29,672 nt of DNA from Pyrinomonadaceae bacterium (GCA_031406255.1 JANOGZ010001263.1:1-29672); one strand, 5' to 3'; shown: positions 417-8,431, numbered from the stretch's first letter. Program-made: numbers and translations. Notes: a model not told the origin generated them from the sequence alone.

Positions 417-752
417 GTGACGCGTGTGTCGGCGCGCCCGGCCGAGCTTTACTCGGTCGAAGTCTGGCGCGGGGGCGAGCGTCAATCAGTGGTCCCCGTC
501 ACGAAACCGGAGATTACTATTGGTCGCGGTTCACGATCAATTACGGTTGATCTACCGATCAAGGGCGATCCGGAGGTGAGTCGTGTCCACGCCACTCTCG
601 CGCGCGACACGGAGGGTCGCTACTGGCTGACGGCGAAGGGCCGAAACCCGACGCTCGTGGCGGGGCGCGAATCACCGCGTGATGAGCGCGTCCCGCTGGC
701 CCCGGACGATAAAATCGAGATCGGTAGTTACACGCTGCGCATTCAGCCTTAG
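417..752 (+). CDS. FHA domain protein, probably the C-terminal part of a longer protein
   Basis: FHA motifs ITIGR, VSRVH, GRNPT and IEIG are present. The start is a GTG without a clear RBS, and the frame stays open back to the stop at 366-368. Confidence 0.8.
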   Translation: MTRVSARPAELYSVEVWRGGERQSVVPVTKPEITIGRGSRSITVDLPIKGDPEVSRVHATLARDTEGRYWLTAKGRNPTLVAGRESPRDERVPLAPDDKIEIGSYTLRIQP

Positions 753-824
753 CACCACATCCGGAGCGATCGCCAGCGTTCTCAGTTTTGCCCCGCCGCT
801 TAAAGCTCGCGCGCCAGCGAAAAT

Positions 825-870
825 GAGCGGCCGGTCACGGAAGGAAGATTCCTCCTGTGACCGGCCGCTC
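825..870. terminator. Long hairpin between convergent genes, likely terminator of the minus-strand signalling operon
   Basis: Perfect 14-bp inverted repeat GAGCGGCCGGTCAC (825-838) / GTGACCGGCCGCTC (857-870) with an inner AGGAA/TTCCT stem. ATTTT follows on the minus strand. Confidence 0.65.
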
Positions 871-909
871 GTCGTATTCATTTCGAAAGAGATCGCGGCG
901 GGAATCCTG

Positions 910-2184
910 TTAGCCGTTAACTCCCGCCACGGCGTAAGAAGCTGCTTCGATGTCGGCGATCAACTGCGCGAGTTGGGGCTTGATGCGCTCAGGCTCGATA
1001 TAGCCTTTGCCGAGCAAACGGGTGATCTGTCTGGTACCCTTTTCGCCGTCGATTTCTCTCAGCAGCGCGCGGCAGAAAGCGATGACTACTTCCGGGGCAA
1101 ACTGCTTCCCCGTGTTGCTCCGGATGTCTTCGACCACTTCATTGAAGGCGCGCCGCCGTCTGTACGGCCGGTCTGTCGTCATCGCATCGAATGAGTCCGC
1201 CAGGCTCACGATCTTGGCTCCGATCGGGATTTGCTCGTCAGTTAAACCTTCCGGGTAGCCGCGCCCGTCAGGGCGCTCGTGGTGATAGCGCGCCATGAGC
1301 GGAATGTCGGCGTAAGGGTGGTTGATCGGAGCGAGAATCTCATAACCGGCCGCCGGATGGCGGTTGAGTTCGGATGATTGCTTCGCGTCAATCCTATACG
1401 GAGCATTGATGATTTCCCGATCGACGACGAGTTTGCCGATGTCGTGCAGGTAACCGGCGACGGCGATGCCCTCTACCTCGTCATCATTCCATCCCATTTC
1501 GCGGGCGATGATCTCACTGTATTTACCGACGCGCTCCGAGTGGCCCTGCGTGTACTTATCTTTGCAGTCAATGGCGGCCGCGAAGGCGCGTACGGTATCA
1601 CGATAAATCGTGCGGAGATCATCATAGAGGCGGCGGTTCTCCTGCGCGCGCTGCTCGATCTCGGCGAGCAAGCGATGATTATGAATGCCGATGCCGATGT
1701 AGCGCGCCAGCGAACCGATCACTTCGCCATCATCAGCGGTGAGCGGCTCGCCGCTGGCTTTACCGCCGAGCAAAATGACGCCGACCAACTCCCGGCGAAC
1801 GAGAAGCGGCACCACCAGCTCGACGTGGGGGCTGGCCAGCATGTTGCTGCAGCTCGCTGCCAGCCGCGCCGCCGCTTCAGTATCTTCGGAAGCGATCGCC
1901 AGCAGCCCGCAGGCGCCCACCGCGCACAGATCTTCGGCGTCCTGCTCATTAAACGGCACTCCCGATCGCGGCGCTTCTTCGATGCCACGGGTCGCGACGA
2001 ATTTCAGAAGACGCGCGTGGCAATCATATTCCGCCACGGCGCCGCGGCGGATCGCCAGCGTGCCCAGCACCACATGAAGCGCCGAGCGGATCATCTCTTC
2101 AAAATCGCCGGCATCGGCCAGCTCCTGACCTAAATCGGCGTGCGCGGCCGACGCATGCAGGATTTTACGGATTTTCTCAGCCAT
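910..2184 (-). CDS. GAF + HD-GYP cyclic dinucleotide phosphodiesterase
   Basis: Motifs YTQGHSERV, YLHDIGK, HHERPDGRGYP and ADSFDAMTTDRPYR. The N-terminal region is GAF-like (VPLLVRRELVGVILLG). Confidence 0.92.
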   Translation of the reverse strand: MAEKIRKILHASAAHADLGQELADAGDFEEMIRSALHVVLGTLAIRRGAVAEYDCHARLLKFVATRGIEEAPRSGVPFNEQDAEDLCAVGACGLLAIASEDTEAAARLAASCSNMLASPHVELVVPLLVRRELVGVILLGGKASGEPLTADDGEVIGSLARYIGIGIHNHRLLAEIEQRAQENRRLYDDLRTIYRDTVRAFAAAIDCKDKYTQGHSERVGKYSEIIAREMGWNDDEVEGIAVAGYLHDIGKLVVDREIINAPYRIDAKQSSELNRHPAAGYEILAPINHPYADIPLMARYHHERPDGRGYPEGLTDEQIPIGAKIVSLADSFDAMTTDRPYRRRRAFNEVVEDIRSNTGKQFAPEVVIAFCRALLREIDGEKGTRQITRLLGKGYIEPERIKPQLAQLIADIEAASYAVAGVNG

Positions 2185-2199
2185 GAAAGTCTTGACCCC

Positions 2200-2589
2200 T
2201 CAGTGGCCCGAAGCTGTGGCCGGTGAGCTAAACTCGGTCAGAGTCGCCAGCGCGGCCTCCTCGCTCTCTGCCAGCGCGACGCAGCGCATCAGTCCCAGTA
2301 TCTCGAAGAGTTTGACGGTGTCGCGCCTGACGTTCGAGAAGATCAGCCGCGCGCCGCTCTGCTCCGCCGCGTCGATCACCCCCAAAAGGATAGAGACGCC
2401 GATACTGTTAACCAGTTCGGTGTCCCTAAAGTTGAGAACCAGCGCGCGGCACCCCGTCTCCAGCTGGTCGCGGCATTCGCGTTCGACGCGCTCGCCGCTT
2501 AATTTATTGAGGTAATTCCCGGCATAAATGATAGTTATGGCACCGGTGCTCCGAGAGCGCACCGGTGCGTCGGCCACAAATTCTGCCAT
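2200..2589 (-). CDS. STAS domain anti-sigma factor antagonist (RsbV/SpoIIAA-like)
   Basis: 129 aa with LVLNFRDTELVNSIGVSILL (phospho-acceptor Ser in NSIG) and VKLFEILGL. A purine-rich RBS (AGGGGG) overlaps the upstream stop codon. Confidence 0.9.
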   Translation of the reverse strand: MAEFVADAPVRSRSTGAITIIYAGNYLNKLSGERVERECRDQLETGCRALVLNFRDTELVNSIGVSILLGVIDAAEQSGARLIFSNVRRDTVKLFEILGLMRCVALAESEEAALATLTEFSSPATASGH

Positions 2590-2606
2590 AATCGTAAGTT
2601 TCCCCC

Positions 2607-4898
2607 TTACTTACGCAGATATTTTGTCATCCGCAGGCGCGTCCCGTCATCCACCCGCTCGAACTCCACGTCATCCATGAGCGTGCGGATTAATTTGAGT
2701 CCCCAGCCGCGACGTCCTTTAGTCCCTCCATGTGTTTCGTTGCCGTTGGAGCCCTGCCCCCCAGGCGATTCGCCATTTTGTAGTGCTGCCGGAGAAAGCG
2801 CAAGCCCACGGCTCGAGACTGTGACCACTAATTTATCACTTTCGACGCGAAAGCGTTGATAAATTTTCCGATCCGGGCTGAGACTGTGCTCCGCGGCATT
2901 GATGCAGGCTTCAACCACTGCGGTTTTGATTTGATTGATCGCCTCGGGTTGAAAATTGAGGCGGCGGGCAATTTGTTCGACAGTGTGGGCGGCGATCAAT
3001 TCCGTATCGCCGCCCATCGGGATCACCATCTCGAATTCGTCGAGCGCGACCGAAACGCTCCCGGCGATCCCTCCCGGGCCGAGGCGGGCCGTTAAGAGCT
3101 CGGCCTGCTGGCGGTTTGATCCGAAAGCTTCGCGCTCGTTCAGCAATTCGCTGGCTTCCGCGGAGAACCCCTCCGGCGAGATCAGCCACAGCCGCACGCG
3201 CCCGAAACCGTACGCGAGGCCAACCTGTGTCAGCCGATCGCACCATATCTCGACGAGGGCGCGCCCGGCCTCATGCGTGGCATCGATTTCGACGGCCAGC
3301 CAGACCACTTCGCTGGCATCGGTGTAAGGCACCGCATCGAAACCGTGAGCGACCGCGCACCGCTCCTCATCGCACAGCAACTGCATCGGCGCATGGAACG
3401 CGGCGCAACTCGCGGCATGCACGATCTGCGGTAGACGGATCAGGTCCGTTTCAGTATCGAGGCCGGATATAACCTCATCGGTAGTGATGCCGCGATACAT
3501 ACGGACGAAGCGGTCATGATGGAACAGGCTGGAGGGCACGCGCTGCGCATTGAAGCGTGTCAGTAGATCGCGCGGCTTGAGCGCCGCCGCGCGGCGGTAG
3601 TACCGCGCCATCGTCTGCGGCGCGCGTTTGAGGGTCTCGATCAGCATTCCCGCCACGACGAGGGCGCGCGGCTCGGCTGCGACCTGCAAGCGATAGCTCG
3701 CATGCAGATGATCGCGCCAGACCATGTCCGGGCCGATCTCCACAAAAGTTGCGTTAAGGCTCGCCAGTTCATAAACGTGGAGCCCGGTCATGACGCGTTG
3801 CAACTCGTCCGCATCAAGGTTCAATCTCCTGCGCCACACCTCGGCCGGAGATTTCCCTCCGGTGGTCGCGGCAAACTCATCGAGCACCCGTACCAGTGCG
3901 CGGCGCGTCGCCGGCGCCGGCGCGATCTCTTCCAGCAGCGCGTTAAAGCGGCGGTTGATGCGTCCCCCGAGCAATTCATCAACATATAGCTTCTGACATT
4001 CGAGGAAGCTTGTCAGCGCCCTCCCGGCATCATGCGCCGCCTGCATATAGGCCGTGATAAAAACCGGGTTGCCCGCAAACTGCTGGACCAGCAGATCGCG
4101 CGTCTCATCATTGATCGAGATGCCTTTGCTGAACGCCAACTGGTCAATGAGCCGTCGCGCCTCATGGTCGCTCAAAAGCTCGAGATGAAGCGTTTCCATC
4201 TGATCAAAACGCGCCGTCATCTCCTGCGTCCCGTGCACGACATCCAGCAATCGGCGGCGCAGGCCACTCATCACAAACGGTGATTCTGCTTGAAGCGCTG
4301 CCCGGGCGATTTCGGCGCCGAGGCTGACCTCCCCCTCCAGACATTCCGCGAGGTGAACATCGTCAAAGAGGACGAGCGTCCGTACGCCGCGCGCGGCGGC
4401 TTGCTGCGGCGCGCTCAGGCTCAGACGAATCAACGCGCGTTCGTCGCCTTCCTCGCGCGCGCGCTTGAATGTTTCGAAGAGGCGCTCGATCCACTCGTAA
4501 TCGGAGGGGGCCACCAGTTCCATCAGGGCCGGCAGCGGCGGCGGCGCGCCCAGCAACAGGGCGTCGCCACGATGGTGCGCCACGAGTTGGACGAGGAACG
4601 TGTGAAGAAATCGGCGCGCCGCATTGACGGTTGAATGATCGCTTCGCGTCCACGCAAAATAGATCGGAGAGACGCCCCCACGCTGGTTAAACAACTCATC
4701 ATATGCCTGCCGCAAGAGTTCTGACGCGCCGGCGGAAGGGGCGGTCAGCAGCAGCAGCCAGCGATGTCCGGCGCTATGCGGAGCAAGGCCCGTGATCTGC
4801 TGGAGCGCATCGCGGCGGCCGATGAAGTCCTCCGGCTGAATGCGACCGAGAACACGTCCGCCGGGGGGCGCGCGTTTATGTGGCTTCTCTGTCGGCAT
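2607..4898 (-). CDS. Multidomain protein: degenerate P-loop ATPase-like N-terminus + C-terminal RsbW/HATPase_c-like anti-sigma Ser kinase domain
   Basis: N-terminal DFIGRRDALQQI, pseudo-Walker A TAPSAGASELL and Walker B LVLFDD. C-terminal AVVEACINAAEH and GRRGWGLKLIRTLMDDVEF. I moved the start from 5060 to the ATG at 4898 (763 aa) because the longer ORF overlaps the GGDEF gene by about 185 nt. Confidence 0.8.
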   Translation of the reverse strand: MPTEKPHKRAPPGGRVLGRIQPEDFIGRRDALQQITGLAPHSAGHRWLLLLTAPSAGASELLRQAYDELFNQRGGVSPIYFAWTRSDHSTVNAARRFLHTFLVQLVAHHRGDALLLGAPPPLPALMELVAPSDYEWIERLFETFKRAREEGDERALIRLSLSAPQQAAARGVRTLVLFDDVHLAECLEGEVSLGAEIARAALQAESPFVMSGLRRRLLDVVHGTQEMTARFDQMETLHLELLSDHEARRLIDQLAFSKGISINDETRDLLVQQFAGNPVFITAYMQAAHDAGRALTSFLECQKLYVDELLGGRINRRFNALLEEIAPAPATRRALVRVLDEFAATTGGKSPAEVWRRRLNLDADELQRVMTGLHVYELASLNATFVEIGPDMVWRDHLHASYRLQVAAEPRALVVAGMLIETLKRAPQTMARYYRRAAALKPRDLLTRFNAQRVPSSLFHHDRFVRMYRGITTDEVISGLDTETDLIRLPQIVHAASCAAFHAPMQLLCDEERCAVAHGFDAVPYTDASEVVWLAVEIDATHEAGRALVEIWCDRLTQVGLAYGFGRVRLWLISPEGFSAEASELLNEREAFGSNRQQAELLTARLGPGGIAGSVSVALDEFEMVIPMGGDTELIAAHTVEQIARRLNFQPEAINQIKTAVVEACINAAEHSLSPDRKIYQRFRVESDKLVVTVSSRGLALSPAALQNGESPGGQGSNGNETHGGTKGRRGWGLKLIRTLMDDVEFERVDDGTRLRMTKYLRK

Positions 4899-6996
4899 TG
4901 TTCGATGAGGAATAGGGGTTTGAGGCGGTGAAAGAATTGATGCGGTTCTTACCGCGTTTCTTGGCGACGTAGAGAGCCTGATCGGCCGCGCCGATGATAC
5001 TGGCCGGCGTATCGTGTTCGGGCCCGAAGGCTGAAATGCCGATACTGACGGTGACCGCACCGAGCGGCTGGTTTTTTCCGTGCGGATACTGCATGCGCTC
5101 CACGCGCCGCCGAATGCGCTCGGAGATCACCTGTGCTTCGGAAAGATTTGTCTGCGGAAGTAGGATGCTGAATTCCTCGCCGCCGTAGCGCGAGGCGACG
5201 TCCGCCGACCGCAGCGCCGATTTCAAGCACTGCGCCGTCATCTCCAGCGCAAGATCACCCGCCTGATGCCCGTTGCGGTCGTTATAGTGCTTGAAATCGT
5301 CGATATCAACCATCAGGAAGCTCATCGGGAAGCGGTGACGCTTCGATCTCTCCAATTCTTCCGCCAGCCGCTCTTCGAGATAACGCCGGTTAAGCAATCC
5401 GGTCAGCGGATCGGTAATCGAGAGCAGCTGGAATTGCGTGGCCTTCTGGTGCCACTCCGCGCGATCGAGGGCGAGCGCCATCTGCGGCGCAAACATCTCC
5501 AGTAACCCCAGATCAATTTCATCGTAGATGCCGCCGCCGGCCTTATCCGTGACATTCAGGACTCCGACGCGGCGGCCGCCGATCATGATCGGATAGCTGA
5601 TAAACGAACCGGTTTTATAGCTTCGCTCGGCCGGAGCCGGATCGCGCCCCGAGGCGACCATATCACGCACGACCAGCGGTCGGCCTTCGCTGAGCACCGT
5701 GCCCGAGATGCTCTCGCCGAGGCGGGTGCGAGCCTCGCGGGCGGCCTCGGTGCACGGGCCGATCACGGCTTTGACCGCCAGTTCGTTGGCGCTTTCATCG
5801 AACATCTGGAGCGAGCCGCGCTCGGCATGAAGCAACTGCGTCGAGTGTTGCAGGATCGTCGCATAGGCGTCTTCGGGCTCGACCGCGTTGATATGATCCG
5901 TGAAGGCCTGAAGATGAAAGGCCGCGCGCATGCGCTTTTCCAGCTCTTCGCGGAGGCGGAGCACCTCAAACGGAAGCGCCATCTCGCGACAATAATCAGC
6001 GAGCGCCTGTCGCGTCGCGTCGCTTAAAGGAAGATCGCCAACAATCAACGCCCCTTTAACTTCTTCACCGACGATCAGCGGAAACAGCTCGGCGACCTCT
6101 TTCCGCTTCGAGGTCGAGCGGCCCTCCAAGGGCACTATGACCGATCCACCCTGCTTGACCGCCTGGAGCAAATTATTGTTTTTCGTATCGATCGCGATCC
6201 GCGGCGGGTTGGCAACGAACTTTCCCGTCGCGCAGGAACTGGTGGTGATGAACTCCTCGTCATTACGCAACATCAAGACGAGCGAATCGAGCCTGTGGGC
6301 TTCCGCTAGTGAACGGACGGCAGCGCTGCATACTTCTTTGAAAGTAGTGCCGGGAGGAAAGTAAGAAGAGTTGGGAGGGAAACCGGCTTTCGCCATACTG
6401 GTGGTGCTCGGCGTCGCAGGCACGCCCGCCGCCGCACCCGGTGGCCCCGTCGGCGTCGATTCGCCCGCCGGGCGCGCGGCAACCTCGGCCGCGGCTTGAG
6501 CGATGCGTGTCGCCAGATCGTCGAGGTCTTGAGGGGCGGCGAAGATCACGTTGCGGAACAGGTCAGCGGAGAGCAGTTCGCTGAGATCACCGCTGCGGAC
6601 GCGCTCGGCCAGCGCACGATAATCCGCGCTGTGGAGAAAAGCTCGTCCCCCGATCACAGCCAGGGGGCGTCCTTTCAGCAATCCGACGGGCTGCGTGAAG
6701 CAATTGAGTCCGGCGTGGCAGCGGTAACGCGTTGTGGTACCGGCGCTCATGGCGCGCGCATGGGCTTCTCCGCAGTAGGGATCACAGAGGTGCGCATGTG
6801 TCGGAGATGTTTGAAAAGCGTGGCAGATGGAATTGTTATTCGAGATGGCGAGCTCGGGCGGCTGATGCCCGTCGATCAGCAGAATGGCGAGATCGGTCGC
6901 CGAGGACAGCGATTCCTGCGCCTCCCACCATCCGGAGGGGACTTCCAGTCCGTCTGATTGGATCACGGTTCGCTGTGGGGCAGCAGCTTTATCCAT
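4876..6996 (-). CDS. Diguanylate cyclase with PocR-like sensor and GAF domain(s)
   Basis: TDPLTGLLNRR, DIDDFKHYNDRNGH, RYGGEEF with an intact RxxD I-site (RSAD). The N-terminus has a Cys/His PocR-like pattern (ICHAF..LCDPYC..YRCHAGL). The start could instead be the ATG at 7047. Confidence 0.92.
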   Translation of the reverse strand: MDKAAAPQRTVIQSDGLEVPSGWWEAQESLSSATDLAILLIDGHQPPELAISNNNSICHAFQTSPTHAHLCDPYCGEAHARAMSAGTTTRYRCHAGLNCFTQPVGLLKGRPLAVIGGRAFLHSADYRALAERVRSGDLSELLSADLFRNVIFAAPQDLDDLATRIAQAAAEVAARPAGESTPTGPPGAAAGVPATPSTTSMAKAGFPPNSSYFPPGTTFKEVCSAAVRSLAEAHRLDSLVLMLRNDEEFITTSSCATGKFVANPPRIAIDTKNNNLLQAVKQGGSVIVPLEGRSTSKRKEVAELFPLIVGEEVKGALIVGDLPLSDATRQALADYCREMALPFEVLRLREELEKRMRAAFHLQAFTDHINAVEPEDAYATILQHSTQLLHAERGSLQMFDESANELAVKAVIGPCTEAAREARTRLGESISGTVLSEGRPLVVRDMVASGRDPAPAERSYKTGSFISYPIMIGGRRVGVLNVTDKAGGGIYDEIDLGLLEMFAPQMALALDRAEWHQKATQFQLLSITDPLTGLLNRRYLEERLAEELERSKRHRFPMSFLMVDIDDFKHYNDRNGHQAGDLALEMTAQCLKSALRSADVASRYGGEEFSILLPQTNLSEAQVISERIRRRVERMQYPHGKNQPLGAVTVSIGISAFGPEHDTPASIIGAADQALYVAKKRGKNRINSFTASNPYSSSNNADREAT

Positions 6997-7160
6997 TACC
7001 AATTCTTCTAGTTTGGACAAGATGATCGAGTCCGATCCAAAACGCATTTGAAGGGCATAACGCGGTTCGCGTCTTCAGTGAGGACTGGTGACGCGTGACC
7101 GGACATGCGCCGCGGTCCACCAGGACCGCTCATGTTTTATGGTAAATACCCTATGAGCGC

Positions 7161-7189
7161 AGTATAAGCGTCTATAGTTAAACAGACAA
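7161..7189 (-). promoter_or_regulatory. Housekeeping sigma70-like promoter for the cyclase operon
   Basis: Minus strand reads TTGTCT-N17-TATACT (-35 at 7189-7184, -10 at 7166-7161). Confidence 0.55.
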
Positions 7190-7222
7190 AGTATGCTTAG
7201 CCTTGACTCGTCTGCCCGAAAG

Positions 7223-7245
7223 TATGACTTCGCGCCGAGGTCATA
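7223..7245 (-). terminator. Possible weak terminator after oppF
   Basis: TATGACTTCG-CGC-CGAGGTCATA stem with one mismatch, about 30 nt after the oppF stop, followed by CTTTC on the minus strand. Confidence 0.35.
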
Positions 7246-7276
7246 ATCTCTAGATATATCTAATAGGCAAGCTTTT

Positions 7277-8431
<1,155 letters not shown>

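What the first reader, a model, noticed from the sequence alone, without database searches (positions are those of the whole stretch)
910..7047. Compact operon coupling c-di-GMP synthesis and breakdown to a partner switch
Seen: four co-directional genes with a 23-nt overlap and 17- and 15-nt gaps: cyclase (GGEEF intact), RsbW-like kinase fusion, STAS (Ser intact) and GAF-HD-GYP (motifs intact). They sit between one sigma70-like promoter and one strong hairpin. No sigma factor or PP2C phosphatase is in the unit. Known: Pseudomonas SiaABCD and HsbR/HsbA/HsbD use STAS phosphorylation to control a cyclase. Inference: here the STAS phospho-state may toggle between a cyclase and a phosphodiesterase encoded together, rather than release a sigma factor.
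Basis: partly seen in the sequence, partly recalled or inferred. Interest (0 to 1): 0.75.

Follow-up and report, generated by a model that had tools for sequence, protein, structure and literature searches.

The report
c-di-GMP make/break partner-switch cassette
Four tightly packed genes of a soil/sediment acidobacterium (a c-di-GMP synthase, a large hub protein ending in an anti-sigma-kinase-like domain, a small STAS switch protein and a c-di-GMP hydrolase) form a cassette conserved across distant bacteria, which probably sets levels of this second messenger in a way I found described in no paper.

Summary
On the minus strand lie PocR-GAF-GGDEF (4876-7047), an AAA+/Mrr-like/RsbW-like hub I call "KIN" (2607-4898), STAS (2200-2589) and GAF-HD-GYP (910-2184). 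The 23-nt overlap and the 17- and 15-nt gaps are exact. A promoter-like site conserved in relatives lies upstream and a strong hairpin downstream. The window holds no sigma factor or PP2C gene.

The gene order is intact in 66 of 66 assessable Pyrinomonadaceae species genomes, in a second Blastocatellia family, and in two distant metagenomic lineages. The cassette consists of two pairs. Cyclase-KIN and STAS-HD-GYP are never separated, and breaks occur only between KIN and STAS.

A complex model places the Ser62 face of STAS on the GAF domain of the phosphodiesterase (score 0.78, best control 0.02). Outside Blastocatellia, STAS follows KIN only where the RsbW-like motifs are intact (6/6 against 0/5, two independent losses).

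KIN departs from a textbook kinase. Its G1 box lacks the adenine-binding Asp, and in this lineage its Walker A lacks the Lys.

A STAS-phosphodiesterase link is likely. STAS binding to the cyclase was not tested, and the genomic pattern couples the cyclase to KIN instead.

This scan has reported the same cassette on other genomes. I found no paper describing it.

The parts
7161..7189 (-). Sigma70-like promoter candidate, TTGTCT-17-TATACT, in the 229-nt gap after the oppF-like gene
   Evidence: It is the only hit in 9.6 kb. Both hexamers are kept in 4 of 5 aligned relatives, one of them with two changes in the -35 hexamer, while the flanks diverge. Transcription was not tested.
4876..7047 (-). 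Diguanylate cyclase with PocR, a central region, GAF and GGDEF; GGEEF and the RxxD I-site are intact. The start may be Met18 at 6996.
   Evidence: RYGGEEF plus the I-site is present in 74 of 74 relatives. Two f6 genomes have AGDEF instead.
2607..4898 (-). Hub protein 'KIN', 763 aa, overlapping the cyclase gene by 23 nt
   Evidence: The AlphaFold2 model has pLDDT 83. It is single-copy in the genomes that carry it.
3699..4847 (-). KIN residues 18-400: archaeal-type AAA+ (ATPase_2/STAND-like) nucleotide-binding domain, lid and winged helix. Walker A lacks Lys (APSAGAS); Walker B is LFDD.
   Evidence: Fold matches 2fna Z 23.5 and 2qen Z 23.4, followed by NLR, Apaf-1 and ORC proteins. Walker A is canonical GxxxxGK[ST] in all members outside the Pyrinomonadaceae-type clade.
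3063..3593 (-). KIN residues 436-612: domain with a PD-(D/E)xK / Mrr-like nuclease fold, probably not catalytic
   Evidence: The domain model has pLDDT 93.7. It matches 1y88 at Z 9.9, then NucS, AspBHI and Can2, and an AlphaFold DB Mrr cluster at E 7e-7. The ExK-like motif reads D-A-T here and is not kept across the family.
2610..3041 (-). KIN residues 620-763: RsbW-like GHKL domain. N-box and G2 box are intact; the G1 box is non-canonical (SSRGLA).
   Evidence: It matches 6m36_A at Z 19.4, rmsd 1.1 A, and SiaB at Z 12.2. Motif counts over 80 genomes are.
2200..2589 (-). Single-domain STAS protein, 129 aa; the Ser62 codon is at 2404-2406
   Evidence: N61-S62-I63-G64 are invariant in 20 sequences down to 33% identity. 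Ser62 aligns with SpoIIAA Ser58.
910..2184 (-). PmGH-type GAF-HD-GYP phosphodiesterase: GAF about 1678-2106, HD-GYP about 1087-1584
   Evidence: It matches 4mcw (PmGH) at E 6e-53 over residues 14-373. The HD and GYP motifs are conserved.
825..870 (.). GC-rich hairpin followed by AUUUUC; probable two-way terminator shared with the convergent FHA gene
   Evidence: -52.8 kcal/mol for the 105-nt region, z = -5.5.

Best explanation
This is a self-contained cassette for controlling c-di-GMP, built from two conserved gene pairs around a hub protein.

Pair 1 is the PocR-GAF-GGDEF cyclase and KIN. KIN is an AAA+/STAND-like module, a nuclease-fold domain and a C-terminal RsbW-like domain. Pair 2 is a STAS protein and a PmGH-type GAF-HD-GYP phosphodiesterase.

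Proposed mechanism (inferred):
- Free, unphosphorylated STAS docks by its Ser62 face on the GAF domain of the phosphodiesterase and changes its activity.
- The RsbW-like domain of KIN takes the same STAS face, by binding it, phosphorylating Ser62, or both. This removes STAS from the phosphodiesterase.
- KIN is separately coupled to the cyclase through its N-terminal modules, probably through the PocR part of the cyclase.
- One hub would therefore link synthesis and breakdown, with no sigma factor as output.
- Any dephosphorylation would be done by one of about ten PP2C genes elsewhere in the genome, or the switch depends on binding rather than on a phosphate.

Shown: gene content, motifs, conservation, the two-pair structure, the correlated loss, and the folds. 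Predicted by a model: the STAS-GAF contact. Inferred: the direction of regulation, kinase activity, and physical coupling of KIN to the cyclase.
For: 1. Conservation.
- The full gene order is present in 16 of 20 loci from different genera.
- It is present in 66 of 66 assessable species-representative Pyrinomonadaceae genomes. The other 14 are cut by contig ends, and there is no counterexample.
- It is present in two genomes of a second Blastocatellia family that lack the opp neighbours (L038, L040).
- It is present in two distant metagenomic lineages (L137, GC 0.37, and L141, GC 0.50). A relative of one of these is labelled Thermodesulfobacteriota.

2. Two pairs.
- When the cassette is split, STAS and HD-GYP move together and the cyclase stays with KIN (G009 and G023).
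- An insertion seen in L037 falls between KIN and STAS (a Fic-domain gene), and larger KIN to HD-GYP spacings in other genomes are consistent with the same breakpoint.

3. Matching presence and absence.
- The KIN N-terminal profile is found only in families f1 (16/16) and f6 (2/2) among 301 Acidobacteriota genomes.
- The HD-GYP orthologue is found only in f1 (17/17) and f6 (15/15), and in 0 of 48 genomes from eight other families of the class.

4. Correlated loss.
- Outside Blastocatellia, members with an intact N-box and G2 box have STAS directly downstream in 6 of 6 cases (L127, L128, L130, L137, L140, L141).
- Members with decayed motifs have no STAS in 5 of 5 cases (L131, L133, L138, L139, L143).
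- The decayed members form two separate, fully supported clades, so the loss happened twice.

5. Complex model of STAS with GAF-HD-GYP.
- Scores were 0.79, 0.78 and 0.78, against a best control of 0.02. In the tool's calibration this mark was reached by 58 of 80 solved complexes and by 2 of 110 mismatched pairs.
- The interface covers STAS residues 61-67 (including Ser62), 69-73 and 93-103, and HD-GYP residues 3-46, 66-67 and 142-145.
- Interface columns are more conserved than the rest of each domain: entropy 0.83 against 1.83 (p = 3e-8) and 0.56 against 1.44 (p = 8e-6).

6. Folds. The KIN C-terminus superposes on RsbW at 1.1 A. STAS is closest to SpoIIAA.

7. No sigma factor or PP2C gene is in the window. 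No SigB/F/G-type sigma exceeds the cut-off in the genome. About ten PP2C genes lie elsewhere.
Against: - No experiment and no RNA data bear on this. Only DNA metagenome runs hold the sequence.
- The G1 box lacks the Asp and the second Gly that bind adenine in GHKL enzymes, so phosphorylation of Ser62 may not occur.
- In this lineage the AAA+ Walker A Lys is also lost, in all 80 genomes checked. KIN may therefore be a nucleotide-independent scaffold.
- The STAS-GAF contact is a model built with my own 18- and 20-row alignments, so the tool's calibration holds only roughly.
- The conserved STAS face would be conserved anyway if it is needed to bind RsbW-like domains.
- Contact between KIN and the cyclase, and between KIN and STAS, was not modelled.
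- Within Pyrinomonadaceae, synteny also extends to the opp and FHA neighbours. Conservation inside that family is therefore partly inherited.
- The correlated loss rests on only two independent events.
Confidence: 0.55

Rival explanations
1. STAS itself binds the cyclase in one phospho-state and the phosphodiesterase in the other, as HsbA switches between FlgM and HsbD.
For: STAS or STAS-like proteins are reported to control the cyclases HsbD, BgrR and SiaD (PMC8457831, read). All four genes are co-conserved. STAS is predicted to bind the phosphodiesterase.
Against: The cyclase-KIN pair persists without STAS in two clades. STAS travels with HD-GYP, not with the cyclase, when the cassette splits. 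In L127 the unit KIN-STAS-HD-GYP exists without a cyclase. A STAS-cyclase fold was not run.
Confidence: 0.15
2. A binding-only switch. KIN is a pseudo-kinase and pseudo-ATPase scaffold, Ser62 is never phosphorylated, and STAS is shared between KIN and the phosphodiesterase according to ligands sensed by the PocR and GAF domains.
For: The G1 box lacks Asp and the second Gly across the family, while two paralogues in the same genome keep DxGxG. The Walker A Lys is lost in this lineage. No PP2C accompanies the cassette in the window or among the genes called on the distant contigs.
Against: The N-box Asn/His and the G2 box are strictly kept wherever STAS is present and decay wherever it is absent. 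This argues that nucleotide binding matters. The G1 position holds a conserved Asn or Ser rather than varied residues. Ser62 is invariant.
Confidence: 0.2
3. A canonical anti-sigma system. The RsbW-like domain sequesters a sigma factor encoded elsewhere, STAS is its antagonist, and the two c-di-GMP enzymes are only co-expressed neighbours.
For: The RsbW fold matches closely. The genome has several sigma-70-family genes.
Against: No SigB/F/G-type sigma exceeds the family cut-off in a genome that is 94% complete. No sigma gene lies in the window or among the genes called on the distant contigs. The c-di-GMP enzymes stay with the pair across phyla despite unrelated neighbours. STAS is predicted to bind the phosphodiesterase.
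Confidence: 0.07
4. Inherited synteny without functional coupling.
For: Within Pyrinomonadaceae the opp and FHA neighbours are also conserved.
Against: The order recurs in other families and in other phyla-level lineages with different neighbours. Presence, absence and motif decay are matched between the genes. The first junction is a 23-nt overlap and the other two are gaps of 17 and 15 nt.
Confidence: 0.03

Closest known systems
HptB-HsbR-HsbA-HsbD (Pseudomonas aeruginosa) and BgrSTUWV-BgrR (Sinorhizobium meliloti)
   Same: A true STAS protein, handled by an RsbW-type kinase domain, controls a c-di-GMP enzyme rather than, or in addition to, a sigma factor (PMC8457831).
   Different: The targets there are cyclases, and the partner-switch set includes a PP2C; in HsbR this is by my recollection, since one search does not give its domains. 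Here the predicted STAS target is the GAF domain of an HD-GYP phosphodiesterase, no PP2C is in the unit, and the RsbW-like domain is fused to an AAA+/nuclease-fold hub.
SiaABCD (P. aeruginosa)
   Same: A four-gene unit in which phosphorylation of a small partner protein decides whether it binds a c-di-GMP enzyme. The fold of the kinase SiaB matches the KIN C-terminus at Z 12.2.
   Different: SiaC is a DUF1987 protein, not a sequence-level STAS. The PP2C SiaA is part of that unit. There is no phosphodiesterase. The SiaD model scores 167 bits against a cut-off of 290, so the cyclase here is not a SiaD orthologue.
RsbW-RsbV and SpoIIAB-SpoIIAA (Bacillus)
   Same: The folds of both partners match (6m36 at Z 19.4, rmsd 1.1 A; SpoIIAA at E 8e-12). 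The phospho-Ser position, the N-box and the G2 box are kept.
   Different: There is no sigma factor and no PP2C. The G1 box is SxGxx or NxGxx instead of DxGxG. About 620 extra N-terminal residues precede the domain.
PmGH of Persephonella marina (GAF-HD-GYP, PDB 4MCW)
   Same: Same architecture and motifs, E 6e-53 over GAF plus HD-GYP.
   Different: The ligand of the PmGH GAF domain is unknown (bioRxiv 10.1101/2021.11.05.467447). Here a STAS protein is predicted to be the partner of the GAF domain.
Archaeal-type AAA+ ATPases SSO1545 (2FNA) and PABY2304 (2QEN), and STAND switches (MalT, Apaf-1, NLRs)
   Same: The nucleotide-binding domain, lid and winged-helix fold of KIN residues 18-400 match at Z 23.
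   Different: The Walker A Lys is lost in this lineage. The module is fused to a nuclease-fold domain and an RsbW-like domain. I found no paper describing this combination.

Membership tests
RsbW/SpoIIAB-type partner-switching system | GHKL (HATPase_c_2) anti-sigma kinase domain with an N-box and a G2 box | tested here: met
   Pfam 3e-19. Fold match to RsbW at Z 19.4. The N-box and RGWGL are kept in 79 to 80 of 80 relatives.
RsbW/SpoIIAB-type partner-switching system | G1 box DxGxG (the adenine-binding Asp) | tested here: not met
   The motif is SSRGLA here and NxGxx in distant members. RsbW, SpoIIAB and two paralogues in the same genome have D-x-G-x-G.
RsbW/SpoIIAB-type partner-switching system | Single-domain STAS antagonist with a Ser or Thr at the SpoIIAA Ser58 position | tested here: met
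   Ser62 aligns with Ser58 and is invariant in 20 sequences.
RsbW/SpoIIAB-type partner-switching system | A cognate PP2C phosphatase encoded with the pair | tested here: not met
   None in the window or among the genes called on the distant contigs. About ten PP2C genes lie elsewhere in the genome.
RsbW/SpoIIAB-type partner-switching system | A sigma factor as the sequestered target | tested here: not met
   No sigma gene is in the unit. The best SigB/F/G match in the genome scores 133 bits against a cut-off of 234. Binding to another sigma factor cannot be tested with these tools.
RsbW/SpoIIAB-type partner-switching system | Phosphotransfer from the kinase to the STAS Ser | not testable with these tools
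   This needs an in vitro kinase assay or phosphoproteomics.
SiaABCD | SiaD-type cyclase, DUF1987 partner SiaC and PP2C SiaA | tested here: not met
   The SiaD model scores 167 bits against a cut-off of 290. The partner is a Pfam STAS protein. There is no PP2C.
Diguanylate cyclase (GGDEF) | GG[DE]EF active site, plus an RxxD I-site | tested here: met
PmGH-type GAF-HD-GYP phosphodiesterase | N-terminal GAF, HD...HHE...GYP motifs, similarity to 4MCW | tested here: met
   Enzyme activity was not tested.
AAA+/STAND NTPase | Fold of nucleotide-binding domain, lid and winged helix | tested here: met
   2fna and 2qen match at Z 23.
AAA+/STAND NTPase | Walker A GxxxxGK[ST] | tested here: not met
   The motif is APSAGAS here, and no Lys is present in any of 80 Pyrinomonadaceae genomes. 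It is canonical in all other clades.
PD-(D/E)xK (Mrr-like) nuclease | Fold | tested here: met
   1y88 matches at Z 9.9, and an AlphaFold DB Mrr cluster matches at E 7e-7.
PD-(D/E)xK (Mrr-like) nuclease | Catalytic D...(D/E)xK residues | tested here: not met
   The window has D-A-T where relatives have E-S-K, and the motif is absent in other clades.

The most novel reading that the evidence does not exclude
The cassette is a push-pull controller of c-di-GMP of a kind not yet described. A STAS protein acts as a protein ligand of the GAF domain of an HD-GYP phosphodiesterase. An AAA+/STAND hub with an RsbW-like domain of unusual nucleotide pocket (Asn or Ser in place of the adenine-binding Asp) captures or phosphorylates that STAS while holding the PocR cyclase. 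One hub would thus flip synthesis and breakdown in opposite directions. The altered G1 box might change nucleotide preference, for example towards GTP, the cyclase's own substrate. That last point is pure speculation.
Probability: 0.3. Interest if true: 0.8.

Novelty: new variant of a known kind. Interest (0 to 1): 0.65.

Why it matters
Partner-switching control of c-di-GMP is known only for cyclases: HsbD, BgrR and SiaD. How HD-GYP phosphodiesterases of the PmGH type are regulated is open, and the ligand of their GAF domain is unknown.

This cassette offers a testable answer, namely that a STAS protein docks on the GAF domain. It also shows an architecture in which one hub protein links the enzyme that makes the messenger and the enzyme that breaks it. 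The cassette is found in every sampled genome of two Blastocatellia families, which are abundant soil bacteria, and it recurs in other phyla.

It is also a natural series for asking what RsbW-like and AAA+ domains do after losing canonical nucleotide-binding residues.

Tried and rejected
- Rfam, whole window at gathering scores and 600-7400 at E up to 1: no hit, so no c-di-GMP riboswitch or other known RNA lies in the leader.
- Public sequencing runs: only DNA metagenomes (freshwater sediment, soil, hot spring) hold the stretch and no RNA run does. Co-transcription across the junctions could not be checked, and read laying was not used.
- The consensus terminator scan did not list the 825-870 hairpin because its T-run is too short. 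I folded it directly instead.
- Only one complex job is allowed, and I spent it on STAS with HD-GYP. STAS with the KIN C-terminus, STAS with the cyclase, and KIN with the cyclase were not modelled.
- My first automatic motif classifier wrongly called L024 and P0198 decayed, because of one-residue variants of the N-box. I corrected this by eye from the alignments.
- Six literature searches found no paper on a STAS/HD-GYP pair or on an AAA+-RsbW fusion. The library lacks most subscription-journal papers, so this does not prove that none exists.
- The convergent FHA gene was considered as a phospho-reader. It is syntenic only inside Pyrinomonadaceae and is absent from the distant loci, so I did not count it as part of the unit.
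- The unpublished genome G017 appears only in the tally.

Full report
WHAT IS THERE

The window is contig C688 of a metagenome-assembled genome (94% complete, 1,384 contigs). The nearest relatives of its proteins are labelled Pyrinomonadaceae, in Acidobacteriota, class Blastocatellia.

Four ORFs lie head to tail on the minus strand.
- 4876-7047 encodes a 723-aa protein with PocR, GAF and GGDEF domains.
- 2607-4898 encodes a 763-aa protein with a C-terminal HATPase_c_2 domain. Its best named matches are RsbW and SpoIIAB. I call it KIN.
- 2200-2589 encodes a 129-aa STAS protein.
- 910-2184 encodes a 424-aa GAF-HD-GYP protein.

GGEEF with an RxxD I-site, the STAS NSIG motif, and the HD and GYP motifs are all intact.

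An opp-type peptide ABC-transporter operon lies upstream on the same strand. A convergent FHA gene lies downstream. No PP2C or sigma gene was found among the large ORFs scanned across the 29.7-kb window.

BOUNDARIES

The promoter scan finds a single sigma70-like site, TTGTCT-17-TATACT at 7189-7161. This is no more than chance would give in 9.6 kb. However, both hexamers are kept in 4 of 5 relatives whose intergenic regions otherwise diverge, one of them with two changes in the -35 hexamer. I take it as a reasonable promoter candidate.

After the last stop codon comes a 46-nt GC-rich hairpin (825-870) followed by AUUUUC. The region folds at -52.8 kcal/mol, z = -5.5. There is no known RNA element in the leader. 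Transcription itself could not be checked, because only DNA metagenomes hold the sequence.

CONSERVATION

I tested gene order at three depths.

1. Twenty genomes of different genera.
- Sixteen have the uninterrupted order cyclase-KIN-STAS-HD-GYP. Two of these belong to a second family, f6, where KIN is 32-37% identical and the opp neighbours are absent.
- One has a Fic-domain gene inserted between KIN and STAS.
- Three have only cyclase-KIN at that place.

2. Eighty species-representative Pyrinomonadaceae genomes.
- All 66 loci with enough flank have the full order.
- The other 14 are cut by contig ends, and there is no counterexample.

3. Distant family members found by an exhaustive profile search with the KIN N-terminus. 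It returned 1,090 clusters, 325 of them at E <= 1e-30, and nearly all are 700-780 aa long.
- Their contigs have GC 0.36-0.65. A relative of one is labelled Thermodesulfobacteriota.
- The full four-gene order recurs in L137 and L141 with unrelated neighbours.

TWO PAIRS

In two of the three genomes where the cassette is split (G009, G023), the STAS and HD-GYP orthologues sit together elsewhere. In the third (G013, 80% complete), no orthologue was found.

The one insertion I examined falls between KIN and STAS. In some genomes of one genus, KIN and HD-GYP lie 3-5 kb apart; I did not examine what lies between them.

Outside Blastocatellia the unit appears in several reduced forms:
- KIN-STAS-HD-GYP without a cyclase (L127);
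- cyclase-KIN-STAS (L128);
- a PocR-only gene followed by KIN and STAS (L140);
- cyclase-KIN alone (L131, L133, L138, L139, L143).

KIN is therefore the hub. A PocR- or GGDEF-containing gene lies directly upstream in 10 of 12 distant contexts.

Presence and absence also match. Among 301 Acidobacteriota genomes the KIN module occurs only in families f1 (16/16) and f6 (2/2). In the class sample the HD-GYP orthologue occurs only in f1 (17/17) and f6 (15/15), and in 0 of 48 genomes from eight other families.

CORRELATED DECAY

This is the most informative comparison.
- Distant KIN proteins that keep the N-box (E..N..EH) and the G2 box (RGWG) have a STAS gene immediately downstream in 6 of 6 cases.
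- Those in which these motifs have decayed have no STAS in 5 of 5 assessable cases.
- On a tree built from the N-terminal 600 residues only, the decayed proteins form two separate clades, each with 100/100 support. The motifs were therefore lost twice, each time together with STAS. My automatic labels for L024 and P0198 in that call were wrong and are corrected here.

This ties the RsbW-like domain to STAS. It also shows that the cyclase-KIN link does not depend on STAS.

WHAT KIN IS

An AlphaFold2 model (pLDDT 83) and a separate model of the middle domain (pLDDT 93.7) give three parts.
- Residues 18-400 are an archaeal-type AAA+ ATPase with lid and winged helix. They match 2fna and 2qen at Z 23, followed by NLR, Apaf-1, ORC and MalT-type switches.
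- Residues 436-612 have a PD-(D/E)xK / Mrr-like nuclease fold (1y88 at Z 9.9; AlphaFold DB Mrr cluster at E 7e-7). The catalytic-type residues are not kept.
- Residues 620-763 superpose on B. subtilis RsbW at 1.1 A (Z 19.4) and also match SiaB (Z 12.2).

This confirms a lead from an earlier first-reader note on the same gene.

Two nucleotide sites are unusual.
- The Walker A motif is canonical GxxxxGK[ST] in every clade except the Pyrinomonadaceae type. There both the first Gly and the Lys are gone, and the former Lys position varies freely.
- The G1 box of the RsbW-like domain is NxGxx across the family and SxGxx here. RsbW, SpoIIAB and two RsbW paralogues of the same genome have DxGxG.

In GHKL enzymes that Asp contacts the adenine; this is established knowledge, not tested here. 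Kinase activity is therefore uncertain. The position is conserved as Asn or Ser wherever STAS is present and lost where it is absent. That argues for an altered pocket that still functions rather than for decay.

STAS AND THE PHOSPHODIESTERASE

STAS is closest to SpoIIAA, and Ser62 aligns with the phospho-Ser58. N61-S62-I63-G64 are invariant down to 33% identity. The HD-GYP protein is a PmGH-type enzyme (4mcw, E 6e-53 across both domains). The ligand of the PmGH GAF domain is unknown.

A complex prediction of the two proteins scored 0.79, 0.78 and 0.78, against 0.02, 0.00 and 0.01 for three controls. The tool's verdict is that the model supports binding and does not show it. In its calibration the mark was reached by 58 of 80 solved complexes and 2 of 110 mismatched pairs, and these counts hold only roughly because my own alignments were used.

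The contact joins STAS residues 61-67, 69-73 and 93-103 to the N-terminal helix and GAF domain of the enzyme (3-46, 66-67, 142-145). These columns are clearly more conserved than the rest of each domain.

By my recollection of the SpoIIAA-SpoIIAB structures, this is the same STAS face that RsbW-type kinases bind. If so, the two contacts would exclude each other, which is the logic of a partner switch. That step is inference.

MOST LIKELY MECHANISM (confidence about 0.55)

- Free STAS is a protein ligand of the phosphodiesterase GAF domain.
- The RsbW-like end of KIN takes STAS away by binding it, phosphorylating Ser62, or both.
- The AAA+/nuclease-fold part of KIN is coupled to the PocR cyclase, whose gene overlaps the KIN gene.
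- One hub would thus link synthesis and breakdown, with the c-di-GMP level as the output rather than a sigma factor.
- The genome has about ten PP2C genes, nine STAS matches and at least two further RsbW-like genes elsewhere. A phosphatase acting in trans is therefore possible.
- The sign of the effect on either enzyme is unknown.

RIVALS

It fits the cyclase-KIN-only variants poorly.
- A binding-only scaffold fits the odd nucleotide sites.
- A hidden sigma-factor target is unlikely. No SigB/F/G-type sigma exceeds the cut-off, and no sigma gene travels with the unit.

COMPARISON WITH WHAT IS KNOWN

Partner switches that control c-di-GMP cyclases are established: HsbA-HsbD, BgrV-BgrR and SiaC-SiaD (PMC8457831). 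[quoted passage not shown]

Six literature searches found no paper on a STAS partner for an HD-GYP enzyme, on an AAA+-RsbW fusion, or on this four-gene unit. I class it as a new variant of a known kind.

This scan has already reported the same cassette on at least eight other genomes, with similar verdicts. My tests were made independently on this window and agree with those notes. I cannot see from them whether the STAS-GAF fold with controls or the twice-repeated joint loss of RsbW motifs and STAS had been reported before.

Noticed in passing
window 7255-7270 (minus strand), just after the oppF-like stop: A short AT-rich motif (consensus TTATTAGTTATATC) is kept in most aligned relatives upstream of the promoter candidate. 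It could be a regulator binding site for the cassette or part of the opp operon's end.
   Followed up: no
window 417-752 (+): A small FHA-domain protein lies convergent to the cassette and shares the hairpin. It is syntenic in many Pyrinomonadaceae (57 of 80 loci) but absent from distant loci.
   Followed up: partly
L037:3834-5243 (genome G002); spacing suggests the same in G242: A Fic-domain gene is inserted exactly between KIN and STAS in G002. Larger KIN to HD-GYP spacings in several genomes of genus g24 hint that this junction is a recurrent insertion point.
   Followed up: partly
L131, L138, L139, L142 (metagenome contigs): In the clade that has lost STAS and the RsbW motifs, a PatA_N-domain gene always precedes the cyclase-KIN pair. 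It may be a replacement partner.
   Followed up: no
L137:7334-7981: In one distant full cassette the STAS gene encodes two STAS domains in tandem (215 aa).
   Followed up: no
L140:3253-3954: One lineage has a stand-alone PocR protein instead of the PocR-GAF-GGDEF cyclase in front of KIN-STAS. This points to PocR as the part that works with KIN.
   Followed up: no
L038 and L040 (family f6): The cyclase active site reads AGDEF instead of GGEEF in the second Blastocatellia family.
   Followed up: no
G000 contig C1036 (L135): A conventional PP2C - STAS - RsbW-like - PP2C cluster with a canonical DxGxG G1 box exists elsewhere in the same genome. It is a useful internal contrast and a possible source of a phosphatase acting in trans.
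   Followed up: partly
window 4876-7047, residues 70-125 of the cyclase: The PocR domain carries several Cys and His residues in close spacing (C..H..C...C....H....C.H), which suggests a metal or redox cofactor.
   Followed up: no
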